A stretch of 16,319 bases of DNA from Thermostichus sp. DRC_bins_24 (GTDB lineage Bacteria; Cyanobacteriota; Cyanobacteriia; Thermostichales; Thermostichaceae), in contig JAUQVK010000025.1 in the NCBI GenBank assembly GCA_039794845.1, forward strand, positions 125,330 through 141,648, in the 5' to 3' direction. Each line of letters begins with the position of its first letter. Within the stretch, counting starts at the first letter, position 1. The translations under genes were made by a program, and so were the position numbers. Below are positions 1 through 15,767 of this stretch, piece after piece. Below the pieces are notes generated by a model. That model searched no databases, was not told the origin of the DNA, and saw only the letters and a program-made list of their open reading frames with translations.

Positions 1-1940
1 AGGTCATAGTCAAAACTCTGATTAAATCCAAGTTGCCCACCTCTAACTTTTACAGAAGCCGAAGGCTCAGTCGCTAACTTAGAGCCTATTTTGATCTGTA
101 CCCATGATGGCACTGGTCCGATCAAAAATGGTATTGTCTTTACTGGAATTTCGAATAACTGTATCTCAAAAGATATATCTAATTTCAGAATTCCATCGAA
201 AGCAATCCCTAACAATGCATTCTGTTCACCTTTGAGTGTGAAATCGAAGTGATTGAGACCAAAGTTGGGACTGAATGGATCCATTCCAAAATCCAAGTCT
301 CCAGATACCACTGGCGTAAAGTTAAAGCCTCCATAAACTTGAGCAAGAAGTTCCCGTTGAGTCCTTAATCCTGAACGCTTGAAGCGACCTTTATCACGCC
401 TAAATAGGCCCAACTCAACTCGACTGGTTGGTGTCGCAATTAATGTCCTTACAAACTGAGTGTTTCCCGGTATGGCTTGAGAATATTTTGCCTTGAGAAG
501 ACTTTCGGAAACGGGATCAACTAGAAAATAAGATAATGGACTGAATGCCAGTTTTTGAGGATCCAATTGGAAGTCAAGTTGTGAACGATTCTGAGAAGTC
601 AGATTGAGGCTGAGATCCACCTGCTGACTAAAGCTTGCTGATCCTTCCAGAATGAGATTTGAGAAAGGTGTTAGTTCAACCGTCATCCTCAAAGTGTTTC
701 CCTCCCTCTGAAGGGTCTTGATCCTCATCGGAGGGACACGCATGTCGGCTCCCACGATCACGTCATTGGGCAGTAGCGTAGGCAGGTTCTCACTATCTAC
801 CAAAATCAGGGAAAACTCATTAAGGGTTCTTGTTTCATCCTCAGGATCAAAATCAAATGCTAAAATCTGAGTCCTCTGATCCGGTAAGACCTTGACATTG
901 GGTGCAACACGTATATCTGGAGTGCTCAATGTGAAACTGACTCGATCAAAACTTGTGCGCCCATCCGAAAGCCGCACTCTAGCAGTGATCGTCTCCATCA
1001 AAGGAAGGGATCCACTGTTGTAAGTGAAGTTGGGGCCGGATCCCATGGGTCTTCCCTGATGATCTAGCCACTCAATCAAACTCGACCAATCTCTACCTTG
1101 CTCATCTACAGCTGTTGCCCGGAGTGCGACAGAAGCTCCTGTCGTTTGGGGCTGACCATCCACTTGATCTCGATCGATAATCGTTACTACTAAACCATTC
1201 GCTGGGGGCAATCCGCCTATGCCTTCGCCGCCGGTGGGTGTTGAAGTTGGAGTAGGGGGTGAGATGGGTTGTGTACCCCCGCCTTCTCCTGAAGTTGGTG
1301 GAGAGGGTGAAACGATAGGAGATGGGCTTTGTATTGGGAAAGAAGGTGCTGGAGAATCCAGCCGAGGCAGCTCAATTCCGGGAGATAAGTTACACGAGAT
1401 TTGTAAAACCCCTAGGCAAACTTGTTCTATGCTTTCAGGAGCTTCTGAGCCGAAGAGTATTCCCAAGACAATCCCAAAATCTTCAAGAGTTCCAGATATT
1501 CCGTCTCCATTAAAGTCAAAAAGGGCAACAGGAACAGGTTGAGCTGTATTGATGTCTTCTTCAGAAAGTCTGATCCCGAAAATATCGAAGATGATTCTTT
1601 GGATTTCCAATGGCGTCGCATTTGGGTTAATGATTCGTGCCAACGCAACCATGAAGTCTCTGATATTAAAAGTAATGGATTCTCCGCCGAAGGATATGGT
1701 GGCCGTATTCGTGGTTGCACCAGGAACGGTTTCAGCACTTGGCTGACCGGGAGTAGGCTGAATGGTGGGAACCCCACTCGGTAGGGAGGGGTTTGATACC
1801 GTTGGCGCTTGCGTTGCAGAAGGAGTCGAAAGAGATAGTGTAGAAGGGGATCCTCCGCCGCACCCGATTGCCAGTCCCAAAACTGAGGTCAGCGTGGGAA
1901 TCAGAATAAGCTTCTTAACAAAAAGAGCCTTGCTGCTCAC
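1..1940 (-). CDS. Large putative surface/secreted lipoprotein (>646 aa, 3' end outside the window), with Pro/Ser/Thr linkers, a DFNGDG Ca-binding-like motif, an Ig/PKD-like segment and a beta-rich C-terminal region
   Basis: My hand translation is open from GTG at 1940 to the window edge (MSSKALFVKKLILIPTLTSVLGLAIGCGGGSPSTLSLSTPS...FNQSFDYD). There is an in-frame TGA just upstream and AAGGTG 4 nt before the start. A basic N-region, a hydrophobic stretch and a lipobox-like LAIG|C are present. The ORF track misses it because there is no stop in the window. Confidence 0.85.
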   Translation of the reverse strand, partial: MSSKALFVKKLILIPTLTSVLGLAIGCGGGSPSTLSLSTPSATQAPTVSNPSLPSGVPTIQPTPGQPSAETVPGATTNTATISFGGESITFNIRDFMVALARIINPNATPLEIQRIIFDIFGIRLSEEDINTAQPVPVALFDFNGDGISGTLEDFGIVLGILFGSEAPESIEQVCLGVLQISCNLSPGIELPRLDSPAPSFPIQSPSPIVSPSPPTSGEGGGTQPISPPTPTSTPTGGEGIGGLPPANGLVVTIIDRDQVDGQPQTTGASVALRATAVDEQGRDWSSLIEWLDHQGRPMGSGPNFTYNSGSLPLMETITARVRLSDGRTSFDRVSFTLSTPDIRVAPNVKVLPDQRTQILAFDFDPEDETRTLNEFSLILVDSENLPTLLPNDVIVGADMRVPPMRIKTLQREGNTLRMTVELTPFSNLILEGSASFSQQVDLSLNLTSQNRSQLDFQLDPQKLAFSPLSYFLVDPVSESLLKAKYSQAIPGNTQFVRTLIATPTSRVELGLFRRDKGRFKRSGLRTQRELLAQVYGGFNFTPVVSGDLDFGMDPFSPNFGLNHFDFTLKGEQNALLGIAFDGILKLDISFEIQLFEIPVKTIPFLIGPVPSWVQIKIGSKLATEPSASVKVRGGQLGFNQSFDYD

Positions 1941-3047: not shown

Positions 3048-3244
3048 AAAAGGATGCAGGGTGTTGAGAGGGAGAATACCAGCAGACGGGCTCCGCACGA
3101 CCCGGAGGGCCAACGTTAGCCTACTGCAAATTCTGTTGGATATTCTGAACAAAGGGGTGGTTTTGGAGAGGTGACATGCGCAATAAGGTTGTGGCCATCA
3201 ACGGGTCTGAGATATCGAACAATCCGTATCGGCCTTTCCGAAGA

Positions 3245-3589
3245 ATGTGGGAGGTTGGCTGGGCCCTGCTGCTGGGATCCCTGCTGGTCTTCAGCGATCA
3301 GGGGGTGGTGGTTGCCGAGTTGGAGCTAGAGACGGGCACTTCCACCACCCTGCCCCCCGATGAAGCGCCACCGGTGTTGCCGCCGCCCCCCCTGGGAGTT
3401 CGACAAATTTCCGTGGATACCGACCCTGATCAAACGGCAGATATGCCCCTTTCCCTCATGGGGGAACATGTGCTGGAGGCAGTGTGTGAGGCGCAAATTG
3501 ATGCCCAGCGGGCCTTGGCTCTGATGCCGGATTTGAGTGAATCCCATATCCGCGCTGCCTGCCCGAAGCGGCTGATCCCCAAAAGCTGA
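3245..3589 (+). CDS. Hypothetical secreted/periplasmic protein
   Basis: Hydrophobic N-terminus (WALLLGSLLVF), a Pro-rich linker and two C-terminal Cys. It fills the gap between exoD and the BMP gene. An alternative start lies at 3176. Confidence 0.6.
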   Translation: MWEVGWALLLGSLLVFSDQGVVVAELELETGTSTTLPPDEAPPVLPPPPLGVRQISVDTDPDQTADMPLSLMGEHVLEAVCEAQIDAQRALALMPDLSESHIRAACPKRLIPKS

Positions 3590-3602: not shown

Positions 3603-3644
3603 GTAGCAGAGAATACGTTTAGTCCTGAGGGTGGGTGGTACTCA
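3603..3644 (+). promoter_or_regulatory. NtcA-box-like site (class II NtcA promoter geometry)
   Basis: GTA-GCAGAGAA-TAC at 3603-3616, then exactly 22 nt, then TACTCA (imperfect TAN3T). It lies upstream of the BMP start at 3679. Confidence 0.55.
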
Positions 3645-3678
3645 ATGTGTGTACCGATTTCTTCAGGGATCCCCTTAC

Positions 3679-4707
3679 ATGTCTAGGCTGCGTTTTTCTG
3701 AGCTGGGTTGGAGTCGGGAATGGCTTGCACGAGTAGCCTTCGCAATTGCCATGCTCAGCCTCTTGGTTTTGGGACGGACGACCCAAGCGCAGTCGGGCAG
3801 TGATATCAGCGGCATGAGGCTGGCCATCATTCTGGGAGGAACTGCCAACGACGGCTCTTGGAACCAAGCGGCTGCCGATGCAGGCAAAGCGCTACAGGCT
3901 AAGGGGGTAGAGGTGGCAATCGTGGAACAGATCCCGGATCCCGATGTGGAGCGGGTACTGCGCCAATATGCCGAACAAGAGTTTGACCTGATCATCGGCC
4001 ACTCTTTTAATCATCAGGATGCCGTATTCGCGGTGGCGGAAGACTTTCCGGAGGTGAATTTTTCCTGGGGTGGGGCAATCGGCCGGGTTAGCGAAAATGT
4101 CTCGGATTACGACCAGCCTTTTCACGAGGGGGCCTACCTGGTCGGGATCCTGGCGGGGGAACTGAGCCGAACAGGCCGGCTGGGGGCGCTCTACGGATTT
4201 GAAATTCCGGTTTGTAAAGCGATGGGCAATGCCCTTCTGGCAGGGGCGCAGTTGGTGAACCCAGAGGCCACCCTCACGGATGTGGCGGTGGGGGATTGGT
4301 ACGATGTCGGGCGGGCCAAAGAGGCAGCCTTGGCCCAGGCGGAAACCGGCGTGGATTTCTGGATTGGCTGCGGGCAAGGCCCCACCTGGGGATCCATCGA
4401 AGCGGCCAAGGAGGTGGAAGGCTTCAGCACAGGCTATGTGGGCAACATGACGGAACTGGGGCCCGAGGTGGTGGTCACCAACATCGTCTGGAACCTAGAG
4501 CCCACCTTCAAGCAAATGTTGATCGACACGAAAGCGGGCACCTACGCCGAGCAGTACTACTCCCTGGGGGTGGCAGAAGATGCGGTGCGGTTGGAGTTTA
4601 ACCCCGCCTTTGAAGAACGCATTAGCCCTGAAACCCTGGCCCTCTACGAAGCCACCAAAGCCAAGATCCAGAGTGGCGAATTTGAGGTGCCCTTCCAGCC
4701 CAACTAA
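3679..4707 (+). CDS. BMP-family (PnrA/NupN-like) ABC substrate-binding protein, probably for purines/nucleosides
   Basis: Motifs NDGSWNQAA, FDLIIGHSF, VAEDFPEVNF, EGAYLVGILAG and VGDWYD. The signal peptide ends in AQA with no lipobox Cys. The ORF-track start at 3631 is probably too early. Confidence 0.9.
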   Translation: MSRLRFSELGWSREWLARVAFAIAMLSLLVLGRTTQAQSGSDISGMRLAIILGGTANDGSWNQAAADAGKALQAKGVEVAIVEQIPDPDVERVLRQYAEQEFDLIIGHSFNHQDAVFAVAEDFPEVNFSWGGAIGRVSENVSDYDQPFHEGAYLVGILAGELSRTGRLGALYGFEIPVCKAMGNALLAGAQLVNPEATLTDVAVGDWYDVGRAKEAALAQAETGVDFWIGCGQGPTWGSIEAAKEVEGFSTGYVGNMTELGPEVVVTNIVWNLEPTFKQMLIDTKAGTYAEQYYSLGVAEDAVRLEFNPAFEERISPETLALYEATKAKIQSGEFEVPFQPN

Positions 4708-4803
4708 GCCAAATCCCAGGGGCCACTCTTATAAAGATCTCTTATCCTAAAAGATCAAAGATCCAGTGGCCAGGGATCCCCGAGCAACCCAAAGGTGCTG
4801 GCC

Positions 4804-5826
4804 ATGAGCGAACGGTTTCAGGATTCCAACTCTGTCCTTTTAGGGCGCGAAGCAACACTGGATCCGCTAATCCGAGGGGATTGGCATGCGGTGGTGCGGC
4901 TACAGGATTTAGAAACCCATCCTCAGCCCTTCTCCGTACGGCTGCTGGAAGAAGATCTGGTCATCTGGAAAGCGCAAGGGGAGTGGCGCTGCTGGCAGGA
5001 TCGCTGTGTGCACCGGGGTACGGCTCTGTCGTTGGGCACCGTCAAGGACTCCACCCTGATCTGCCCCTACCACGGCTGGGTATTCGATGCCGAAGGGCGC
5101 TGCATTCACATCCCGGCTCACCCGGAACAAACTCCCCCGAAGCGGGCTTGTATTCCCACCTACGCGGTGCAGGAGCGCTACGGGCTGCTTTGGGTGTGTT
5201 TAAGTAAGCCGCAACAGCCCATTCCCCCTTTTCCCGAGTGGGGGGATCCCAACTTTCGGCCTTTGTCTTCTCGGGGGTATCGCATTCGTGCCTGTGGCAC
5301 CCGCGCCATCGAAAACTTTCTGGATGTCAGCCATTTTCCCTTTGTGCACAAAGCGATTCTGGGGGATCCCGCCCATCCGGTTATTCCCGACTACCGGGTG
5401 CAGATCACCCCGGATGGGGTGCTGGCGGAAAACGTGCGGGTGTATCAGCCGGATCCCTATGGTACAGGGGTAGGAGATACGGTTTCCTATACCTACCGCG
5501 CCCTACGCCCCCTGACAGCCTATTTGCGCAAAGACTCGACGGAGCGATGTGTGGCCATTTTGCTGACCGTCACCCCCCACTCGGAGCAGGAGAGCACCCT
5601 GTGGATGTTGATGGCCATGAACTACGGCTTCGAGATCCCCGCCCAGGATCTGTTGGACTGGCAGGAGGCGATCGTGTTGCAGGATATCCCAATTGTGGAA
5701 TCGCAACGGCCCTACCTCTTGCCCCTGGATCCCCATACGGAGCTGCACTTGGCTTCCGATCAATCGGCGATCCTGTACCGGCGCTGGCTCAAGGACATGG
5801 GCCTACAATTTGGCGTTTTGCCCTGA
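4804..5826 (+). CDS. Rieske non-heme iron oxygenase alpha subunit, VanA/NdmA demethylase-like
   Basis: Rieske ligands DRCVHRG...CPYHGW, mononuclear-iron motif ENFLDVSHFPFVH, and C-terminal QDIPIVESQRP...SDQSAILYRRWL. Confidence 0.92.
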   Translation: MSERFQDSNSVLLGREATLDPLIRGDWHAVVRLQDLETHPQPFSVRLLEEDLVIWKAQGEWRCWQDRCVHRGTALSLGTVKDSTLICPYHGWVFDAEGRCIHIPAHPEQTPPKRACIPTYAVQERYGLLWVCLSKPQQPIPPFPEWGDPNFRPLSSRGYRIRACGTRAIENFLDVSHFPFVHKAILGDPAHPVIPDYRVQITPDGVLAENVRVYQPDPYGTGVGDTVSYTYRALRPLTAYLRKDSTERCVAILLTVTPHSEQESTLWMLMAMNYGFEIPAQDLLDWQEAIVLQDIPIVESQRPYLLPLDPHTELHLASDQSAILYRRWLKDMGLQFGVLP

Positions 5827-5856
5827 TTTGTTTTGTTGTTCACCCCTTCCCTACCG

Positions 5857-7434
5857 ATGCAAGTTTCCCAACGCTCTTCTACCCACACCGGCATCTCAAC
5901 AGATGCGCCCTTGGTGCAGATGCAAGGGATCCGCAAAAGTTTCGCGGGGGTACTGGCCAATGATGGGGTGGACTTTGAGCTGCAACCGGGGGAGATTCAC
6001 GCCCTTTTGGGGGAAAATGGTGCCGGGAAGACCACCCTCATGAACATTCTGGCGGGCCTCTACCAACCGGATGGCGGAGAAATTTGCTTGCGTGGCCAGC
6101 GGGTACAAATCAAATCCCCGCGCCAGGCCATTCAGCTGGGCATTGGCATGGTGCATCAGCACTTTATGTTGGTGCAGAGCTTTACGGTTGCCGATAACAT
6201 CGTTTTGGGGCAAGGCTCGTCAAGATCCGGCGAGGGAGGATCCGGCTGGCTCCGGGAGGATCCCGTACGTCTACACGAGCAGTTGCGGCAGCTGGCGGAA
6301 CAGTACGGATTGCAGGTGGATCCGGCGGCTCAAGTGGCCCAGCTCTCGGTAGGGGAACAACAGCGGGTAGAGATCCTCAAGGCCATTTATCGCGGCTCGG
6401 ATATTTTGATCCTGGATGAGCCAACAGCGGTACTGACGCCCCAGGAAGTGGAGGAACTGCTGCAAACGCTGCGGGCCTTGGCAGCTCAGGGCACAGGCAT
6501 TGTTTTTATTTCCCACAAGCTGAAGGAGGTGCTGGCTCTGTGTCATCGGGTAACGGTGCTGCGGGATGGCCGGCGGGTGGGCACGATCGCGGTGGCAGAA
6601 CACCTGCAAGCCCTGGGATCCGAGGGATGCGAACGGCTCCTGGCCCAGATGATGGTGGGTCGAGAGGTGAACTTTGAGCGGCAACCCGGACGGGAGGCCC
6701 CGCAAAGGCTGGGAGAGCCGCTCCTCACCCTCAAGCAGGTGGTGGCGCTGAGCGACCGTGACCGTCTTCCGGCTTTGCGGGGGATTGATTTGCAGGTGCA
6801 CCCGGGGGAGATCGTCGGGGTTGCCGGGGTAGATGGCAACGGCCAGCGGGAGTTGGAGGAGGTGATCGCGGGGTTACGGCCCATCCAAAGTGGTTCGGTG
6901 CAGTTCGCCGGATCGGGAGCCGTGAACCTGGCCCATATTCCGTCGGATCGCTACAGTATGGGGTTGCTCTCGGAGTTCAGCGTCGCGGAAAATGCCGTGT
7001 TACGGGATGTGGATCGGGATCCCTACTGTCGGCGCGGCTGGTTGGACTTGCGGGCAATTGCCCGCTTTGCTCAACAGTTGGTGCTGCAATTTACGGTGAA
7101 AACTCCCTCGATTCAAACGCGGGCCGGAAAACTCTCGGGGGGCAATGCCCAAAAACTGGTCTTGGGACGGGAGCTGGCGCGACAACCCCGGCTGATCCTA
7201 GCGGCCCAACCGACGCGGGGGCTGGATATTAATGCCATTGAGTATGTGCATCATCAACTGTTGCAACAACGGCAGGCGGGGGCAGGGATCCTGCTCATTT
7301 CCACGGAACTGGAGGAAATCCTGCGGCTGAGCGACCGGATCGTGGTGCTCTACGAGGGACAAATTCGCGGCGAAACCTCGGCAGAGGCGGTGGATATTCA
7401 TCAGTTGGGCCTGTGGATGGCGGGGAGAGACTAG
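5857..7434 (+). CDS. CUT2/nucleoside ABC transporter ATP-binding protein (two fused ABC domains; NupA/YufO-like)
   Basis: Walker A GENGAGKT, GMVHQHFMLV, LSVGEQQRVEI, LILDEPTAVL; second domain GVDGNGQ, LSGGNAQK, QPTRGLD. The start is ATG 5857 or TTG 5833. Confidence 0.95.
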   Translation: MQVSQRSSTHTGISTDAPLVQMQGIRKSFAGVLANDGVDFELQPGEIHALLGENGAGKTTLMNILAGLYQPDGGEICLRGQRVQIKSPRQAIQLGIGMVHQHFMLVQSFTVADNIVLGQGSSRSGEGGSGWLREDPVRLHEQLRQLAEQYGLQVDPAAQVAQLSVGEQQRVEILKAIYRGSDILILDEPTAVLTPQEVEELLQTLRALAAQGTGIVFISHKLKEVLALCHRVTVLRDGRRVGTIAVAEHLQALGSEGCERLLAQMMVGREVNFERQPGREAPQRLGEPLLTLKQVVALSDRDRLPALRGIDLQVHPGEIVGVAGVDGNGQRELEEVIAGLRPIQSGSVQFAGSGAVNLAHIPSDRYSMGLLSEFSVAENAVLRDVDRDPYCRRGWLDLRAIARFAQQLVLQFTVKTPSIQTRAGKLSGGNAQKLVLGRELARQPRLILAAQPTRGLDINAIEYVHHQLLQQRQAGAGILLISTELEEILRLSDRIVVLYEGQIRGETSAEAVDIHQLGLWMAGRD

Positions 7435-7438
7435 CTAG

Positions 7439-8509
7439 GTGCAGAGTCGGCTTCTGGGTTGGGCTGGATTGGGCAAGAGTGGGCCGGGCTCCGGCTCATG
7501 GGGATCCCGAATGGCTATGCCGCTGCTGGGGGCGGGGGTGGCGCTGTTGTTGGGGGCGCTGTTGATCGCCCTGGCGGGGCATAACCCGTTTTTGGCCTAT
7601 GGGGTGATGGTGCAGGGGGCGCTGGGTAGCCAACGATCCCTTACGGAAACGGCCCTGCGGGCCACTCCGCTGCTCATCATAGGGTTGGGTCTGACGATTG
7701 CCTTTCGCTGCAAGGTGTGGAATATCGGGGCGGAGGGGCAGTATCACCTTGGGGCCTTGGCGGGGGCGGTGGTGGCCCTGAATATGGGGGATCAACCCGC
7801 CGGGTTGGTGTTGCCACTGATGTTGCTGGCGGGGATGGCTGGGGGGTTGTTGTGGAGCGGTTTGGCGGGTTGGCTGCACCTGAAACGGGGCATGAATTTA
7901 ATCATCGTCACCCTGATGCTGAACTACATCGGCATTTTGCTGGTGCGCTACATGGCCCGTAGCCCCTTGCGGGATCCGAAGGGGTTTTTGCCGGAATCGG
8001 CCCAGTTTGCGGCGGTGGCGCGCCTGCCGCGGCTGCTCAATACGCGGCTGCACCTGGGGGTGGTGTTGGCGGTGCTCTTGGTAGGGATCCTCTATGTACT
8101 GCTGTGGCGCACTCCTTTGGGGTTTCAGTTGCGGGCGGTGGGAGCCCGCGCCAGCGTGGCCCGGACGATGGGGATCCCGGTGGGAAGAACGATTGTGATC
8201 GCCCTGTTGATCAGCGGTGGACTGGCAGGCTTGGCGGGCATCATTGAAGTCAGTACCACCATTACCCGTTTAAGGGGCACCATCTCCGACAATTACGGTT
8301 TTAGTGCCATTTTGGTAGCCTTGTTGGGGCAGCTACAGCCACTGGGGGTGTTGGTGGCAGCCTTCTTGTTCTCAGCTTTGAGTATTGGGGCAGAGGCGTT
8401 GCAGGTGCGGATGCAGATCCCGGCGGCGGTGGCTCAGGTGATTCAGGCATTGGTGGTGCTGCTGGTGTTGGCGGGAGATGCCTTGGCAAGAAATCGGGGC
8501 AACGAGTGA
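7439..8509 (+). CDS. Nucleoside ABC transporter permease (NupB/YufP-like)
   Basis: Multi-pass hydrophobic protein with WNIGAEGQ, TLMLNYI, TPLGFQLRAVG, SGGLAGLAG and YGFSAILVALLG. The start could instead be ATG 7511. Confidence 0.93.
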   Translation: MQSRLLGWAGLGKSGPGSGSWGSRMAMPLLGAGVALLLGALLIALAGHNPFLAYGVMVQGALGSQRSLTETALRATPLLIIGLGLTIAFRCKVWNIGAEGQYHLGALAGAVVALNMGDQPAGLVLPLMLLAGMAGGLLWSGLAGWLHLKRGMNLIIVTLMLNYIGILLVRYMARSPLRDPKGFLPESAQFAAVARLPRLLNTRLHLGVVLAVLLVGILYVLLWRTPLGFQLRAVGARASVARTMGIPVGRTIVIALLISGGLAGLAGIIEVSTTITRLRGTISDNYGFSAILVALLGQLQPLGVLVAAFLFSALSIGAEALQVRMQIPAAVAQVIQALVVLLVLAGDALARNRGNE

Positions 8510-8574
8510 GGCTCAGTCAAGGGATAACCTCAGACGCAGCCCTAGCCTCTGCCTGCTTGTGGGAGTAAAGGGGA

Positions 8575-8602
8575 ACAAAAAGCCGAGGACGAGTCCCTCG
8601 GC
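8575..8602 (-). terminator. Rho-independent terminator of the ndh operon
   Basis: The minus strand reads GCCGAGG-gactcgt-CCTCGGC followed by TTTTTGT, ~25 nt after the ndhI stop. Confidence 0.75.
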
Positions 8603-8627
8603 CAGGCTTGCACAGCGCCCCAGAGGT

Positions 8628-14310: not shown

Positions 14311-14973
14311 ATGTCGGGTGGAATTGTACAGTCCTCCCTCCAGCAGCCGGTGCGGGTGGGTATCGGAGGGCCGGTGGGATCCGGGAAAACCGCCCTGGTG
14401 GAAAAGCTCTGTGTGGCCCTGCGGGATCCCTTATCTTTGGCGGTGGTGACCAACGATATTTACACCCGCGAAGATGCCGAGTTTTTGGTGCGGGCCAAGG
14501 CCCTCGAGGCAGAGCGGATCATCGGTGTCGAGACCGGCGGCTGCCCCCATACCGCCATTCGCGAAGATGCCTCTTTGAACCTCGATGCCATTCAGGAGCT
14601 GGAGCGGCGGTTTTTCGGGCTGGATCTGATCCTGGTGGAATCGGGGGGAGACAACCTGGCAGCCACCTTTAGCCCAGAGTTGGTGGATGCCTGCATTTAC
14701 GTCATCGATGTGGCAGAGGGGGACAAGATCCCCCGCAAGGGCGGGCCAGGAATTACCCGCTCGGATCTGCTGGTGATCAACAAAATTGATTTGGCCCCCT
14801 ACGTGGGGGCGGATTTGGGGGTGATGGAACGGGATGCACGCCGCATGCGGGGAGAAAAGCCCTTTGTCTTCACCAATTTGCGCACCGGGGAGGGGTTGGA
14901 TCAAATCTTGAATTGGCTGGAGCAAGAGGTGTTGTTTCGCTCCCTTGGATCCCCTTCTTTGAGCCTGCTGTGA
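14311..14973 (+). CDS. ureG: Urease accessory GTPase UreG
   Basis: Motifs [31 protein letters not shown] and NKID. Confidence 0.97.
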
Positions 14974-15767
14974 ACCGGGGCAGTGCTACCTTGAAAATCG
15001 CTCGGCAGGGCAAGTACATCCGAGTCTGGGAATATTCTCAGGCCCCGTTGCAGTGGCTGGGCGGATCAGTCGCGCCTACGGGACGGAGTCCTGCCTTGGG
15101 TTCGTGGAGCGCCCCCGGGGAAGCGCCAGTCTATTATCTGCGCAACCCCAATGGGGGACTGCTGGGAGGGGATCAACACCAGATTCACATCGAAGTCGGA
15201 ACTGCCTCAGCCCTGGAAATTCGCACCCAAGGGGCAACACGCCTGCACCCCGGCTTGATTCAGCAGCAGGTAAGCGTAGACTTGGCCCCGGAAAGTGAGC
15301 TGATCTGGATCCCCCACCCGATCATCCCCGGTGCTGGGGCCGATTTTCGCCAGCAAGTCCAGATTCACCTAGCCCCAAGTGCCCGTTTGGCCTATGCCGA
15401 AATTTGGACCGCCGGACGACTGGCCATGGGCGAGTGCTGGCAATTCGAGCGGCTGCACAGCCATCTGCAAGTTTGGGTTACCTCCCTTTCTCCCCAACCA
15501 GACAAAGTGCTTTGGCTAGAGGAACAGATGGATTTGCGCTTTCCCCACGAGCAGATCACCTCCGGAGCCGTGCTCGGATCCCATACCTGCTGGGGATCCC
15601 TATATTTGCTGGGGGATTGGCCGGAGCCGGATTGGCCCACCGATGCAGAGCACTGGCGGGTGGCATCGCCGGATCCGATTTGTCAAGGATGGATTCTGCG
15701 CCAAGTTGGTCAGCGAGCAGAAGCCCTCTGGCGGAATTTTCAGCGGATGGGATCCACTCCTCGCTGA
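14970..15767 (+). CDS. ureD: Urease accessory protein UreD (divergent)
   Basis: The GTG start overlaps the ureG TGA (GTGA). Motifs [25 protein letters not shown] and GRLAMGE.W.F are present. Confidence 0.85.

What the first reader, a model, noticed from the sequence alone, without database searches (positions are those of the whole stretch)
3603..8509. Candidate methylated-purine scavenging system: NdmA-like Rieske oxygenase embedded in a nucleoside ABC operon
Seen: a Rieske mono-iron oxygenase sits between the BMP binding protein and the CUT2 ATPase, all co-directional with short gaps. Known: BMP/NupABC-type transporters import purines and nucleosides, and motifs such as LSLGTV..CPYHGW, ENF.D.SHF.F.H and D..(I/V).ESQ.P...YR.WL resemble the methylxanthine N-demethylases NdmA/B. 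Inference: the cell imports methylated purines or nucleosides (e.g. from RNA/DNA turnover in a mat community) and oxidatively N-demethylates them for salvage or as a nitrogen source. No reductase is encoded here, so photosynthetic ferredoxin may supply the electrons. I know of no characterised cyanobacterial example.
Basis: partly seen in the sequence, partly recalled or inferred. Interest (0 to 1): 0.75.

Follow-up and report, generated by a model that had tools for sequence, protein, structure and literature searches.

The report
Purine-type importer with built-in Rieske oxygenase
A hot-spring cyanobacterium carries an uptake operon for a purine-like base with an uncharacterised iron oxygenase built into it; relatives of that enzyme sit beside purine-handling genes in many bacteria and archaea, so it probably reworks scavenged purines, though the exact substrate is unknown.

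Summary
Four co-directional genes, 4-96 nt apart, encode a BMP binding protein, a Rieske/VanA_C oxygenase, a tandem ABC ATPase and one permease.

The oxygenase belongs to a large unnamed family. Its nearest solved relatives are the saxitoxin hydroxylases GxtA/SxtT, followed by the xanthine hydroxylase HpxD, then NdmA/B. The O-demethylases are far more distant.

In the 80 best related loci, 38 have a transporter directly beside the oxygenase: 26 BMP-type ABC, 9 APC, 2 MFS and 1 other ABC. Six loci have guanine deaminase immediately upstream, five of them also with hydroxyisourate hydrolase. Others carry adenosine deaminase or a nucleoside hydrolase. The purine link is therefore well supported.

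N-demethylation itself is neither shown nor excluded. It fits best because 38 of 50 carrier genomes, and this one, show no urate-degrading enzymes, while other carriers already have complete xanthine-to-allantoin pathways. I put oxidative dealkylation of modified purines at about 0.4, ring hydroxylation at about 0.2 and a non-purine heterocycle at about 0.15.

The operon occurs in 4 of 12 genomes of the genus, always with one permease. Verdict: a new variant of a known kind, moderately interesting.

The parts
3176..3589 (+). 137-aa ORF with no family match, 41 nt upstream of the binding-protein ORF. Whether it belongs to the operon is uncertain.
   Evidence: No Pfam or NCBIfam hit. Conserved in the same position (190-200 bits) in all three other genomes of the genus that carry the operon.
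3631..4707 (+). BMP-family periplasmic substrate-binding protein. The true start is probably the internal Met at about 3679, ahead of a hydrophobic signal or anchor segment.
   Evidence: PF02608, 126.8 bits. Best solved relatives are 4p98, AtzT (binds guanine) and 3s99 (adenine modelled) (PMC6834077 passages). The stacking residues and Ser-Phe of AtzT are kept (W77, S125-F126, W223), but its polar specificity residues differ.
4795..5826 (+). Rieske [2Fe-2S] / mononuclear-iron monooxygenase of the alpha-only VanA_C type. The likely start is ATG 4804.
   Evidence: PF00355 plus PF19112. PDB phmmer: GxtA 3.5e-74, SxtT 9e-74, NdmA 2e-42, NdmB 2e-32, DdmC 1e-17. AlphaFold model pLDDT 79.3; Foldseek TM 0.78-0.81 to GxtA/SxtT.
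5005..5079 (+). Rieske cluster-binding motif C71-x-H73 ... C90-x-x-H93.
   Evidence: Seen in the translation. All four ligands are invariant in 84 of 84 aligned relatives and paralogues.
5311..5349 (+). ENFLDVSHFPFVH: iron ligands H180 and H185, plus the Phe that aligns with the purine-stacking Phe168 of NdmA.
   Evidence: NdmA contact residues were taken from passages of bioRxiv 10.1101/2021.12.17.472166.
5683..5685 (+). Asp297, the third iron ligand. It aligns with SxtT Asp280.
   Evidence: Alignment. Invariant in 84 of 84 rows.
5833..7434 (+). CUT2-type ABC ATPase with two fused nucleotide-binding domains.
   Evidence: Two ABC_tran stretches. The nearest curated family is the 'putative B6 ABC transporter' ATPase, 505.9 bits against a cut-off of 670, so it is not a member.
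7439..8509 (+). The single BPD_transp_2 permease, presumably working as a homodimer.
   Evidence: PF02653, 144 bits. It is the only permease in the operon in all 4 genomes of the genus that carry it. Relatives in other phyla have two.
8581..8603 (-). GC-rich hairpin with a T-run, lying between the convergent permease and ndhI genes. It is a likely terminator.
   Evidence: 9-bp stem with 6 GC pairs. It was scored on the minus strand. Any role in ending the + strand operon is inferred.

Best explanation
The four genes form an uptake-plus-oxidation module for a purine-type base.

Proposed mechanism:
1. The BMP protein binds a planar purine-like base outside the cell.
2. The tandem ATPase and a single, presumably homodimeric, permease import it.
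3. The Rieske/mononuclear-iron monooxygenase hydroxylates it in the cytoplasm. Electrons most likely come directly from ferredoxin.

The chemistry I think most likely is hydroxylation of an N- (or O-) alkyl group on a modified purine, such as a methylated guanine, adenine or xanthine from nucleic-acid turnover. The hemiaminal then collapses, releasing an aldehyde and an ordinary purine. This organism would salvage that purine. Relatives would deaminate it (guanine or adenosine deaminase next door) or feed it into full purine breakdown.

Shown: the gene content, the intact metal sites, the family relationships and the conserved neighbourhoods.
Inferred: the substrate, the dealkylation chemistry, the electron donor, co-transcription and the homodimeric permease.

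The confidence of 0.4 is for the whole statement including dealkylation. For the more general claim, a purine-type uptake-plus-oxidation module, I would give about 0.75.
For: (1) The metal sites are intact. The Rieske Cys/His ligands and the His-His-Asp iron ligands are kept in 84 of 84 aligned rows.

(2) The enzyme sits in the purine-acting corner of the superfamily. Scores are GxtA/SxtT 252 bits, HpxD 193, NdmA 148, NdmB 116 and DdmC 67. Foldseek gives the same order for the solved ones.

(3) The seven NdmA residues that contact caffeine align with F, F, Y, L, Q, I, V here. Three are identical, Q matches NdmB, and the rest are conservative. F172, Y229 and K243 are invariant in 73 of 73 family members. 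By contrast, SxtT's toxin-binding R204, Q226, S230 and D239 align with P, A, K and I. GxtA/SxtT have Ser where this family keeps the stacking Phe.

(4) Positions that vary between context groups (L253, M268, A289, V291) are those aligned with the regioselectivity residues of NdmA/B (F286) and SxtT/GxtA (M255, T276).

(5) Neighbourhoods in the 80 best loci:
- 26 have BMP-type ABC parts.
- 9 have an APC permease directly upstream; all 9 are archaeal.
- 2 have an MFS directly upstream.
- 1 has a different ABC system.
- 6 have guanine deaminase directly upstream (NF006679, 658 bits against a cut-off of 351). Five of these also have a divergent hydroxyisourate hydrolase.
- 1 has adenosine deaminase.
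- 2 have a nucleoside hydrolase plus a deaminase-like gene.

(6) The window clade is sister (SH-aLRT 96) to the guanine-deaminase-linked clade.

(7) In carriers with full purine catabolism the oxygenase is surplus to the canonical route:
- One gammaproteobacterial carrier has XdhABC, PuuD, HIUase, PuuE, allantoicase and ureidoglycolate lyase in the same cluster.
- The two guanine-deaminase-type cyanobacterial genomes examined have XdhA and XdhB.
- All five guanine-deaminase-type genomes have HpxO over its cut-off.

(8) 38 of 50 carrier genomes show no uricase, PuuD, HpxO or HIUase. This genome has none of them either. A product that can be salvaged makes sense in such genomes; urate does not.

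(9) The binding protein keeps AtzT's stacking residues but replaces Glu165, which hydrogen-bonds guanine in AtzT, with Val. This signature is shared by 14 of 14 short Rieske-linked BMPs apart from minor changes.
Against: - No substrate was tested, and nothing in sequence separates N-dealkylation from ring hydroxylation.
- HpxD, a ring hydroxylase, scores higher against this protein than NdmA does (193 against 148 bits).
- The operon guanine deaminase - oxygenase with a divergent HIUase can equally be read as consecutive steps guanine -> xanthine -> urate. It resembles the hpxD/hpxO/uraH/uraD cluster of Erwinia.
- No formaldehyde-handling gene or dedicated reductase is linked.
- The residue mapping onto NdmA crosses indels in a roughly 30%-identical alignment, and the ENF Phe is also present in HpxD.
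- Most carrier genomes are metagenome bins, so 'no urate enzymes' may partly reflect incompleteness.
- Co-transcription is unproven.
Confidence: 0.4

Rival explanations
1. Molybdenum-independent ring hydroxylase. The enzyme hydroxylates imported hypoxanthine/xanthine (or guanine at C8) to urate-type products, as HpxD does, giving a ferredoxin-driven alternative to xanthine dehydrogenase.
For: - HpxD is a real relative: 36% identity over 91% of the protein by tblastn, and 193 bits by phmmer.
- The sister clade has guanine deaminase - oxygenase beside HIUase.
- The binding protein resembles purine-base binders.
- This genome has no XdhAB-type enzyme over the curated cut-offs. It has only a fused 938-aa relative scoring 631.7 bits against a cut-off of 780.
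- It does have a PuuE allantoinase (548.9 bits, cut-off 424.6).
- Within the genus, PuuE is found only in the operon carriers: 3 intact plus 1 broken among the 4, and 0 of the other 8.
Against: - Urate would be a dead end in 38 of 50 carrier genomes and in this one. No uricase, PuuD, HpxO, HIUase or OHCU decarboxylase was found.
- Carriers with full pathways already have XdhAB.
- HpxD differs at family-invariant pocket positions: K243 is Ile, Y229 is Phe, N171 is Gly.
- HpxD has an adjacent PDR/VanB reductase, which is absent here.
- The PuuE co-occurrence involves close kin and is not independent evidence.
Confidence: 0.22
2. The substrate is a different N-heterocycle that BMP-type systems can carry, such as a pterin, flavin or lumichrome, a B6 vitamer, or a triazine-like compound. 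On this reading the purine genes in relatives reflect a neighbouring pathway rather than the same one.
For: - The nearest curated families for all three transporter parts are the 'putative B6 ABC transporter' models.
- AtzT shows that such binders can accept triazines.
- The polar binding-site residues differ from those of the guanine binder.
- Some Chloroflexota operons add an SDR and a sulfatase and use an unrelated 'long' BMP of 18-25% identity.
Against: - All B6-model scores are far below their cut-offs: 120 against 400, 506 against 670, 189 against 400.
- The neighbour in the sister clade is an unambiguous guanine deaminase.
- Adenosine deaminase and nucleoside hydrolase neighbours occur in two further lineages.
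- Core pocket residues are invariant across all context groups.
Confidence: 0.15
3. Urate 5-hydroxylase. The enzyme would replace uricase, HpxO or PuuD and feed hydroxyisourate hydrolase or spontaneous allantoin formation.
For: HIUase lies next to the gene in 5 loci. Those genomes lack uricase and PuuD. This genome has PuuE but no known urate oxidase.
Against: - All 5 of those genomes have HpxO over its cut-off, at 621-630 bits against 500.
- The gammaproteobacterial carrier has PuuD in the same cluster.
- Most carriers have no allantoinase: PuuE is over its cut-off in only 9 of 50.
Confidence: 0.05
4. The enzyme is a tailoring oxygenase of a natural-product pathway, like SxtT/GxtA, and the transporter exports or re-imports the product.
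For: GxtA/SxtT are the nearest solved relatives. A 45%-identical Mycetohabitans homologue sits in a biosynthetic-looking cluster.
Against: No biosynthetic genes lie in the window or in the 80 loci. The toxin-binding residues are not kept. A binding-protein-dependent ABC system is an importer.
Confidence: 0.03
5. The oxygenase is a passenger inserted into a transporter operon and has no functional tie to it.
For: The gene order differs between lineages, and the operon is patchy within the genus, present in 4 of 12 genomes.
Against: Adjacency to BMP-type ABC parts recurs in 26 of 80 loci in three gene orders, and again at 45% identity in L. boryana. Three other transporter families take the same place in other lineages.
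Confidence: 0.03

Closest known systems
GxtA (SxtDIOX) and SxtT, the saxitoxin C11/C12 hydroxylases of cyanobacteria (PDB 6wnc, 6wn3)
   Same: They are the best solved match (E 3.5e-74, 252 bits; TM 0.78-0.81). They share the alpha-only Rieske/VanA_C fold and the metal ligands, have about the same length, and have no dedicated reductase next to the gene. Their substrate is a perhydropurine skeleton.
   Different: Identity is only about 39% (125 of 321 aligned residues by my count of the alignment; Foldseek gives 36-38%). The residues that hold the toxin's guanidinium and carbamate groups (R204, Q226, S230, D239) are P, A, K and I here. The stacking Phe of this family is Ser in GxtA/SxtT. No sxt-type genes lie nearby. 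The context here is uptake and catabolism, not biosynthesis.
HpxD, the molybdenum-independent xanthine hydroxylase subunit of Klebsiella/Erwinia. The name is from the plasmid record NZ_CP046581. The function comes from the genetics cited in PMC7373994 and PMC13751858, of which I read passages only.
   Same: It is a Rieske/VanA_C oxygenase acting on purine bases, at 34-36% identity and 193 bits. It lies in a purine-catabolic cluster with HIUase, as the sister clade of the window protein does.
   Different: HpxD has an adjacent PDR/VanB reductase (HpxE), and its cluster includes hpxO and uraD. It lacks the family-invariant K243, Y229 and N171. In my tree it falls outside the family, with this genome's other paralogues, on a long branch whose placement is unsure.
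NdmA / NdmB, the methylxanthine N1- and N3-demethylases of Pseudomonas putida CBB5 (PDB 6ick, 6icl)
   Same: They have the same fold and a purine substrate. The seven caffeine-contact residues align with identical or conservative residues here, and Gln287 matches NdmB Gln289.
   Different: Identity is about 30% (148 and 116 bits), further away than GxtA/SxtT and HpxD. NdmA/B need the dedicated reductase NdmD. No methylxanthine pathway genes are linked here. The enzyme here is embedded in a transporter operon.
BMP/PnrA-family CUT2 ABC importers. The purine-base binders AtzT (6pi5) and Brucella 3s99 are the nearest characterised binding proteins.
   Same: The binding-protein fold family is the same, with a tandem-domain ATPase and a BPD_transp_2 permease. 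The aromatic stacking pair and the Ser-Phe of the AtzT site are conserved.
   Different: There is one permease instead of two. Three of AtzT's hydrogen-bonding residues are replaced (E165 to V, N218 to C, N220 to Q). An oxygenase gene sits inside the operon.

Membership tests
Rieske non-heme iron oxygenase, alpha-only VanA_C type | Rieske domain with CxH...CxxH cluster ligands | tested here: met
   PF00355, 80.5 bits (cut-off 20.3). C71, H73, C90 and H93 are present and invariant in 84 of 84 rows.
Rieske non-heme iron oxygenase, alpha-only VanA_C type | C-terminal catalytic domain with a 2-His-1-carboxylate iron site | tested here: met
   PF19112, 76.9 bits (cut-off 23.5). H180, H185 and D297 align with the iron ligands of SxtT.
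Rieske non-heme iron oxygenase, alpha-only VanA_C type | Fold like solved members | tested here: met
   Model pLDDT 79.3 and pTM 0.80. TM 0.78-0.81 to GxtA/SxtT and 0.69-0.71 to NdmA.
Rieske non-heme iron oxygenase, alpha-only VanA_C type | Oxygen- and reductant-dependent substrate oxidation | not testable with these tools
   Needs an enzyme assay.
NdmA/NdmB methylxanthine N-demethylases | Closest characterised relatives by sequence | tested here: not met
   NdmA scores 148 bits and NdmB 116, against 252 for GxtA/SxtT and 193 for HpxD.
NdmA/NdmB methylxanthine N-demethylases | Caffeine-contact residues F168, F174, F223, L248, N282, V285, F286 | tested here: inconclusive
   They align with F, F, Y, L, Q, I, V. 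The similarity is real, but the alignment is at about 30% identity and crosses indels, and HpxD shares several of these residues.
NdmA/NdmB methylxanthine N-demethylases | Dedicated NdmD-type reductase partner | tested here: not met
   None in the window. A PDR/VanB-type query (HpxE) finds only ferredoxin-sized ORFs in the genome, at 28.5 bits or less. NdmD itself was not used as a query.
NdmA/NdmB methylxanthine N-demethylases | N-demethylation with formaldehyde release | not testable with these tools
   Needs an assay.
HpxD molybdenum-independent xanthine hydroxylase | Adjacent HpxE (PDR/VanB) reductase | tested here: not met
   Present next to hpxD in Erwinia. Absent from the window, and no recurrent reductase cluster appears among the 80 loci.
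HpxD molybdenum-independent xanthine hydroxylase | Clustered with urate-catabolic genes (hpxO, uraH, uraD) | tested here: not met
   None in the window. This genome lacks HpxO, HIUase and OHCU decarboxylase. HIUase is adjacent only in the sister clade.
HpxD molybdenum-independent xanthine hydroxylase | Orthology-level sequence similarity | tested here: inconclusive
   34-36% identity. It falls outside the family in the tree, but on a long branch.
SxtT/GxtA saxitoxin hydroxylases | Residues that bind the toxin (Q226, D239, R/K204, S/T230) | tested here: not met
   They align with A242, I255, P221 and K246.
SxtT/GxtA saxitoxin hydroxylases | Location in an sxt biosynthetic cluster | tested here: not met
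   The window neighbours are ExoD, ABC parts, ndhI/A/H and ureG/D. The rest of the genome was not searched for sxt genes.
BMP-family CUT2 ABC importer | PF02608 binding protein, tandem ABC ATPase and BPD_transp_2 permease in one operon | tested here: met
BMP-family CUT2 ABC importer | Two different permease subunits | tested here: not met
   One permease here and in the 3 other carriers of the genus. The genome has 16 BPD_transp_2 matches elsewhere, but none is linked.
NCBIfam 'putative B6 ABC transporter' equivalogs | Score over the curated cut-offs | tested here: not met
   Binding protein 120.3 against 400, ATPase 505.9 against 670, permease 189.3 against 400.

The most novel reading that the evidence does not exclude
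This unnamed oxygenase family would be a widespread ferredoxin-driven 'purine repair-for-salvage' enzyme. It would oxidatively strip methyl or other alkyl groups from modified purine bases released by nucleic-acid turnover. That would let cyanobacteria and Chloroflexota salvage them, and let soil ammonia-oxidising archaea (permease - oxygenase - adenosine deaminase) turn them into ammonia. The same stock would have given rise to the saxitoxin hydroxylases.
Probability: 0.3. Interest if true: 0.75.

Novelty: new variant of a known kind. Interest (0 to 1): 0.6.

Why it matters
Modified purines are a constant by-product of DNA and RNA turnover. No general microbial route for reusing them is described in the papers my searches reached.

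This family is large. At least 588 genome hits were found, and 5754 related proteins passed E 0.001 among the candidates scored. If it does this job, it would add a step to purine salvage and to nitrogen cycling in mats and soils, including in ammonia-oxidising archaea.

Even if the chemistry turns out to be ring hydroxylation, it would be a molybdenum-free, ferredoxin-linked purine oxidase coupled to its own importer.

The family also gives an evolutionary context for the saxitoxin hydroxylases, and a set of natural variants at the positions known to steer regioselectivity in NdmA/B and SxtT/GxtA.

Tried and rejected
- Urate-hydroxylase idea. It looked attractive when the five guanine-deaminase-type genomes showed no uricase or PuuD. 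It fell when all five proved to have HpxO over its cut-off.
- 'Replaces xanthine dehydrogenase' as a general reading. It is weakened by XdhAB in carriers and by the lack of urate enzymes in most carriers.
- Xanthine (NMT1-motif) riboswitch or any other Rfam family. There were 0 matches at gathering score in the window, 8 proteobacterial loci, the adjoining cluster L111 and the C38 locus, 146,180 bases in all.
- RNA evidence for co-transcription. No RNA holder was listed.
- Promoter and terminator scan inside the operon. Nothing exceeded the shuffle expectation: 6 terminator-like sites against 8.0 expected, and 1 promoter-like site against 2.3.
- Earlier findings of this scan. Nothing to show.
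- AllC in this genome. Two M20 hydrolases score far below the cut-off (249 and 204 bits against 598), so an allantoate route is neither shown nor excluded.
- Literature. Searches for Rieske+SxtT+homolog, HpxD+Rieske, hpxDE+hypoxanthine, Rieske+xanthine+uric acid+purine catabolism+oxygenase, Rieske+7-methylguanine+demethylase+bacteria, and Rieske+guanine deaminase+BMP family+purine+gene cluster found no description of this family or of a Rieske-BMP operon. The library lacks most subscription-journal papers.
Their position rests on PDB scores only.

Full report
**What is in the window**

The + strand between 3631 and 8509 carries four ORFs separated by 87-96, 6 and 4 nt:
- a BMP/PnrA-like substrate-binding protein (PF02608, 126.8 bits);
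- a protein with a Rieske domain (PF00355, 80.5 bits) and a VanA_C catalytic domain (PF19112, 76.9 bits);
- an ATPase with two ABC_tran stretches;
- one BPD_transp_2 permease.

The database copy of the oxygenase has 340 residues, so the start is probably the ATG at 4804.

The nearest curated transporter families are NCBI's 'putative B6 ABC transporter' models. All three parts score far below the cut-offs: 120 against 400, 506 against 670, and 189 against 400.

There is a single permease, followed by a hairpin and the convergent ndhI gene. A 137-aa ORF with no family match lies 41 nt upstream.

No internal terminator or promoter signal exceeds the shuffle expectation. No RNA run was listed. Co-transcription is therefore inferred from the gaps alone.

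**What the oxygenase is related to**

Against the PDB, the best matches by sequence are:

| Match | E-value | Bits |
|---|---|---|
| GxtA (SxtDIOX) | 3.5e-74 | 253 |
| SxtT | 9.4e-74 | 252 |
| NdmA | 2e-42 | 148 |
| NdmB | 2e-32 | 116 |
| a phthalate dioxygenase | - | 78 |
| DdmC | - | 67 |

An AlphaFold model built on 15 sequences (pLDDT 79.3, pTM 0.80) gives the same order by Foldseek: GxtA/SxtT TM 0.78-0.81, NdmA 0.69-0.71, NdmB 0.71, DdmC 0.67-0.72.

Identity to GxtA is about 39% by my count of the alignment (125 of 321 aligned residues). Foldseek gives 36-38%.

A plasmid search turned up an Erwinia gene annotated as hpxD, 'molybdenum cofactor-independent xanthine hydroxylase subunit'. It is 36% identical over 91% of the query. 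It lies beside a PDR/VanB reductase, hpxO, uraD and uraH. Used as a phmmer query against this genome, it hits the window protein at 193 bits, above NdmA's score.

The enzyme therefore groups with the three known purine-skeleton Rieske oxygenases, not with the O-demethylases or pigment oxygenases. NdmA is the most distant of the three.

**The family**

The protein search found 5754 proteins at E <= 0.001 among 7688 candidates scored. Of the 120 listed, one is the window's own protein and one is 82% identical (named Thermostichus vulcanus by NCBI). The rest are 54-62% identical proteins of about 322 aa. The named ones are mostly Chloroflexota, and all carry generic names.

The best 80 loci (48-59% identity) come from Chloroflexota, Cyanobacteria, Sericytochromatia, Proteobacteria, Acidobacteriota and Thaumarchaeota/Bathyarchaeia.

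**Neighbourhoods in those 80 loci**

I called ORFs, searched them with the window's proteins and clustered all neighbours. I then named cluster representatives with Pfam and NCBIfam and recounted with phmmer.

Transporters:
- BMP-type ABC parts lie within 3.5 kb of the oxygenase in 26 of 80 loci, in three orders: oxygenase-BMP-ATPase-permease-permease; BMP-oxygenase-ATPase-permease-permease with an unrelated 'long' BMP; and transporter-then-oxygenase.
- An APC-family permease lies directly upstream and co-directional in 9 loci, all archaeal. A tenth has one 5 kb away.
- An MFS transporter is directly upstream in 2 loci.
- A branched-chain-type ABC system is directly downstream in 1 locus.
- In total, 38 of 80 loci have a transporter beside the gene, drawn from four unrelated transporter families.

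Enzymes:
- Six loci, from five genomes of filamentous cyanobacteria and one Sericytochromatia bin, have guanine deaminase 30 nt upstream (NF006679 658 bits against cut-off 351; TIGR02967 581 against 375). Five of these also have a divergent hydroxyisourate hydrolase.
- One archaeal locus has a convergent adenosine deaminase (NF006850 465 against 419).
- Two gammaproteobacterial loci have a nucleoside hydrolase, an MFS transporter and a long adenosine-deaminase-like gene alongside.
- SDR genes occur in 13 loci and sulfatases in 5. These may be incidental.
- The other loci, many of them on short contigs, showed nothing recurrent.

A 45%-identical oxygenase on Leptolyngbya boryana plasmid pLBX is the last gene of a BMP-ATPase-permease-permease operon. 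A 45%-identical Mycetohabitans homologue sits in a biosynthetic-looking cluster.

**Position of the window protein**

I built a quick IQ-TREE tree of 84 rows:
- 69 of the 73 family members recovered from the 80 loci;
- the window protein and the three orthologues from its genus;
- four more distant homologues;
- 7 paralogues from this genome.

Rows shorter than 300 aa or longer than 380 aa were dropped.

The window and its three genus orthologues form a clade (SH-aLRT 100). That clade is sister (96) to the guanine-deaminase-linked clade. Both are nested in a mostly Chloroflexota group that holds most of the BMP-linked members. HpxD and the paralogues served as outgroup. HpxD sits on a long branch, so its placement is unsure.

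Within the genus, orthologues of 82-87% identity occur in 4 of 12 genomes. No other of the 41 sampled relatives has one above 43%.

All four carriers share the order ExoD(-) | 137-aa ORF - BMP - oxygenase - ATPase - one permease. The patchy distribution suggests lateral acquisition. The direction of transfer is not established.

**Does the enzyme fill a gap in purine breakdown?**

Mostly not.

In one gammaproteobacterial carrier, the adjoining DNA encodes PuuE, allantoicase, ureidoglycolate lyase, PuuD urate oxidase, XdhC/B/A and HIUase.

The guanine-deaminase-type genomes lack uricase and PuuD (0 of 5 each). But all five have HpxO over its cut-off (621-630 bits against 500). That model also recognises a cyanobacterial gene sitting in an HpxO-HIUase-OHCU decarboxylase-PuuE cluster. 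The two genomes I examined have XdhA and XdhB. Four of the five have OHCU decarboxylase and PuuE.

At the other extreme, I tested 50 carrier genomes: the five above plus 45 chosen for long contigs.
- 12 have HIUase.
- 6 have HpxO, 5 have PuuD and 1 has uricase. These are the same 12 genomes.
- The remaining 38 show none of these enzymes.
- PuuE passes its cut-off in 9 of 50.
- Bin incompleteness is a caveat, although several of the genomes are megabase-scale contigs.

The window's own genome is 99.9% complete. It has no uricase, HIUase, PuuD, HpxO, OHCU decarboxylase, allantoicase or guanine deaminase over the cut-off. It has one fused XDH-family molybdoenzyme below the curated cut-offs and a clear PuuE allantoinase.

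In the genus, PuuE occurs only in the four operon carriers: three intact and one broken by a stop. It occurs in none of the other eight. These genomes are close kin, and PuuE passes its cut-off in 21 of the 41 genomes sampled, which include the four carriers. I treat this only as a lead.

**Pocket comparisons**

I mapped published ligand contacts through the HMMER alignments.

SxtT's toxin-binding residues R204, Q226, S230 and D239 (PMC7293229 passages) correspond to P, A, K and I here. The saxitoxin site is not kept.

NdmA's caffeine contacts F168, F174, F223, L248, N282, V285 and F286 (bioRxiv 10.1101/2021.12.17.472166 passages) correspond to F, F, Y, L, Q, I and V. NdmB has Gln at the N282 position. 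HpxD has Asn and Phe, like NdmA.

Across the 73 family members:
- F172, Y229 and K243 are invariant.
- Q287 is kept in 68 of 73.
- The variable positions are those aligned with the selectivity residues of NdmA/B and SxtT/GxtA.

This argues for one planar aromatic scaffold presented in different registers. It does not tell N-methyl hydroxylation from ring hydroxylation.

**The binding protein**

Its best solved relatives are 4p98, AtzT and Brucella 3s99. AtzT binds guanine at 110 nM and adenine at 2.5 uM. 3s99 was modelled with adenine (PMC6834077 passages).

The stacking residues Tyr45 and Trp194 and the Ser97-Phe98 pair of AtzT are kept here as W77, W223 and S125-F126. E165, N218 and N220 become V, C and Q.

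The same signature, with minor changes, is shared by 14 of 14 'short' oxygenase-linked BMPs from cyanobacteria and Chloroflexota that I aligned, including the L. boryana protein. The ligand is thus probably a purine-like base, but not plain guanine.

A 75%-identical orphan paralogue on contig C38 lies next to a divergent DIOX_N-type 2OG oxygenase and an NMT1-like binding protein. This is the gene set that Yu and Breaker found under xanthine riboswitches in Proteobacteria (PMC7373994 passages). No such riboswitch was detected here.

**Reading**

That this is a purine-type uptake-plus-oxidation module seems well supported; I put it at about 0.75.

Within that, oxidative dealkylation of modified purines is the only reading that makes sense in all three kinds of carrier:
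- genomes with complete purine catabolism;
- genomes with only a deaminase;
- genomes with neither, this one included.

I rank it first at about 0.4. HpxD-like ring hydroxylation follows at about 0.22, a non-purine heterocycle at about 0.15, and urate hydroxylation at about 0.05.

The electron donor (ferredoxin) and the homodimeric permease are inferences from absence. There is no reductase in the window. No full-length match to a PDR/VanB query was found in the genome. There is no second permease in any of the four carriers of the genus.

**Novelty**

Six full-text searches found no description of this family or of a Rieske-BMP operon. The library omits most subscription-journal papers.

Purine-acting Rieske oxygenases and BMP purine importers are both known. 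I therefore call this a new variant of a known kind, with real but moderate interest.

Noticed in passing
own genome contig C38, locus L097:7443-11080: An orphan BMP paralogue (75% identical to the window's) lies next to a divergent DIOX_N/2OG-Fe(II) oxygenase and a convergent NMT1/THI5-like binding protein. This is the same gene set that is reported under xanthine riboswitches in Proteobacteria. No riboswitch was detected here.
   Followed up: partly
window 7439-8627: The operon has one permease where relatives in other phyla have two. The single-permease form is shared by all four carriers in the genus, so it is probably functional rather than a recent loss.
   Followed up: partly
own genome C107:576-1490 (L117) and genus genomes G004, G008, G010: PuuE allantoinase passes its cut-off only in the operon-carrying members of the genus (intact in 3, broken by a TGA in G008) and in none of the other 8. 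This genome shows no urate oxidase, HIUase or OHCU decarboxylase. Where its allantoin would come from is unexplained.
   Followed up: partly
own genome contigs C31, C37, C44, C69, C86, C97, C103: There are seven further full-length VanA_C-type Rieske oxygenase paralogues (31-35% identical to the window's) plus a fragment on C101. They lack the family's invariant F172, Y229 and K243. This is an unusually large set for a 3.5 Mb genome.
   Followed up: partly
L119:7587-11695 (genome G035, same class): A truncated 247-aa Rieske/VanA_C gene sits beside HpxO (595 bits, cut-off 500), HIUase, OHCU decarboxylase and PuuE. It may be a decayed HpxD-like partner of a cyanobacterial urate cluster.
   Followed up: partly
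L031, L033, L035, L042, L045, L049, L059, L063, L080: In archaea (mostly Thaumarchaeota/Nitrososphaerales bins) the oxygenase always follows an APC-family permease, with gaps of 56 nt or less. One locus adds a convergent adenosine deaminase. This may be a route from organic nitrogen to ammonia in ammonia oxidisers.
   Followed up: no
L064, L069, L079 (Phototrophicaceae): A variant operon reads SDR - 'long' BMP - oxygenase - ATPase - two permeases - sulfatase. This suggests a different, perhaps sulfated, substrate in this subgroup.
   Followed up: no
L116:5403-10888 (Mycetohabitans rhizoxinica plasmid pBRH01): A 45%-identical homologue lies between an HpaB-like hydroxylase, a diaminobutyrate transaminase-family gene and a SidA-type N-monooxygenase. 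This looks like a natural-product cluster, parallel to the recruitment of SxtT/GxtA.
   Followed up: no
window 3-1940 (- strand): A 646-aa open-ended ORF rich in Pro, Ser and Thr has no Pfam match. It lies in DNA of 44% GC (bases 1-1000), against 57% for the genome.
   Followed up: no
window 3176-3589: A 137-aa ORF with no family match, containing a hydrophobic segment and a Pro-rich stretch. It is conserved directly upstream of the operon in all four carriers of the genus.
   Followed up: partly
window 14311-15767: The urease accessory genes ureG and ureD lie 6 kb downstream of the operon, beyond ndhI/A/H, a DUF3288 gene, a CMD-family gene and a Uma2 nuclease gene. No functional link to the operon was established.
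   Followed up: no
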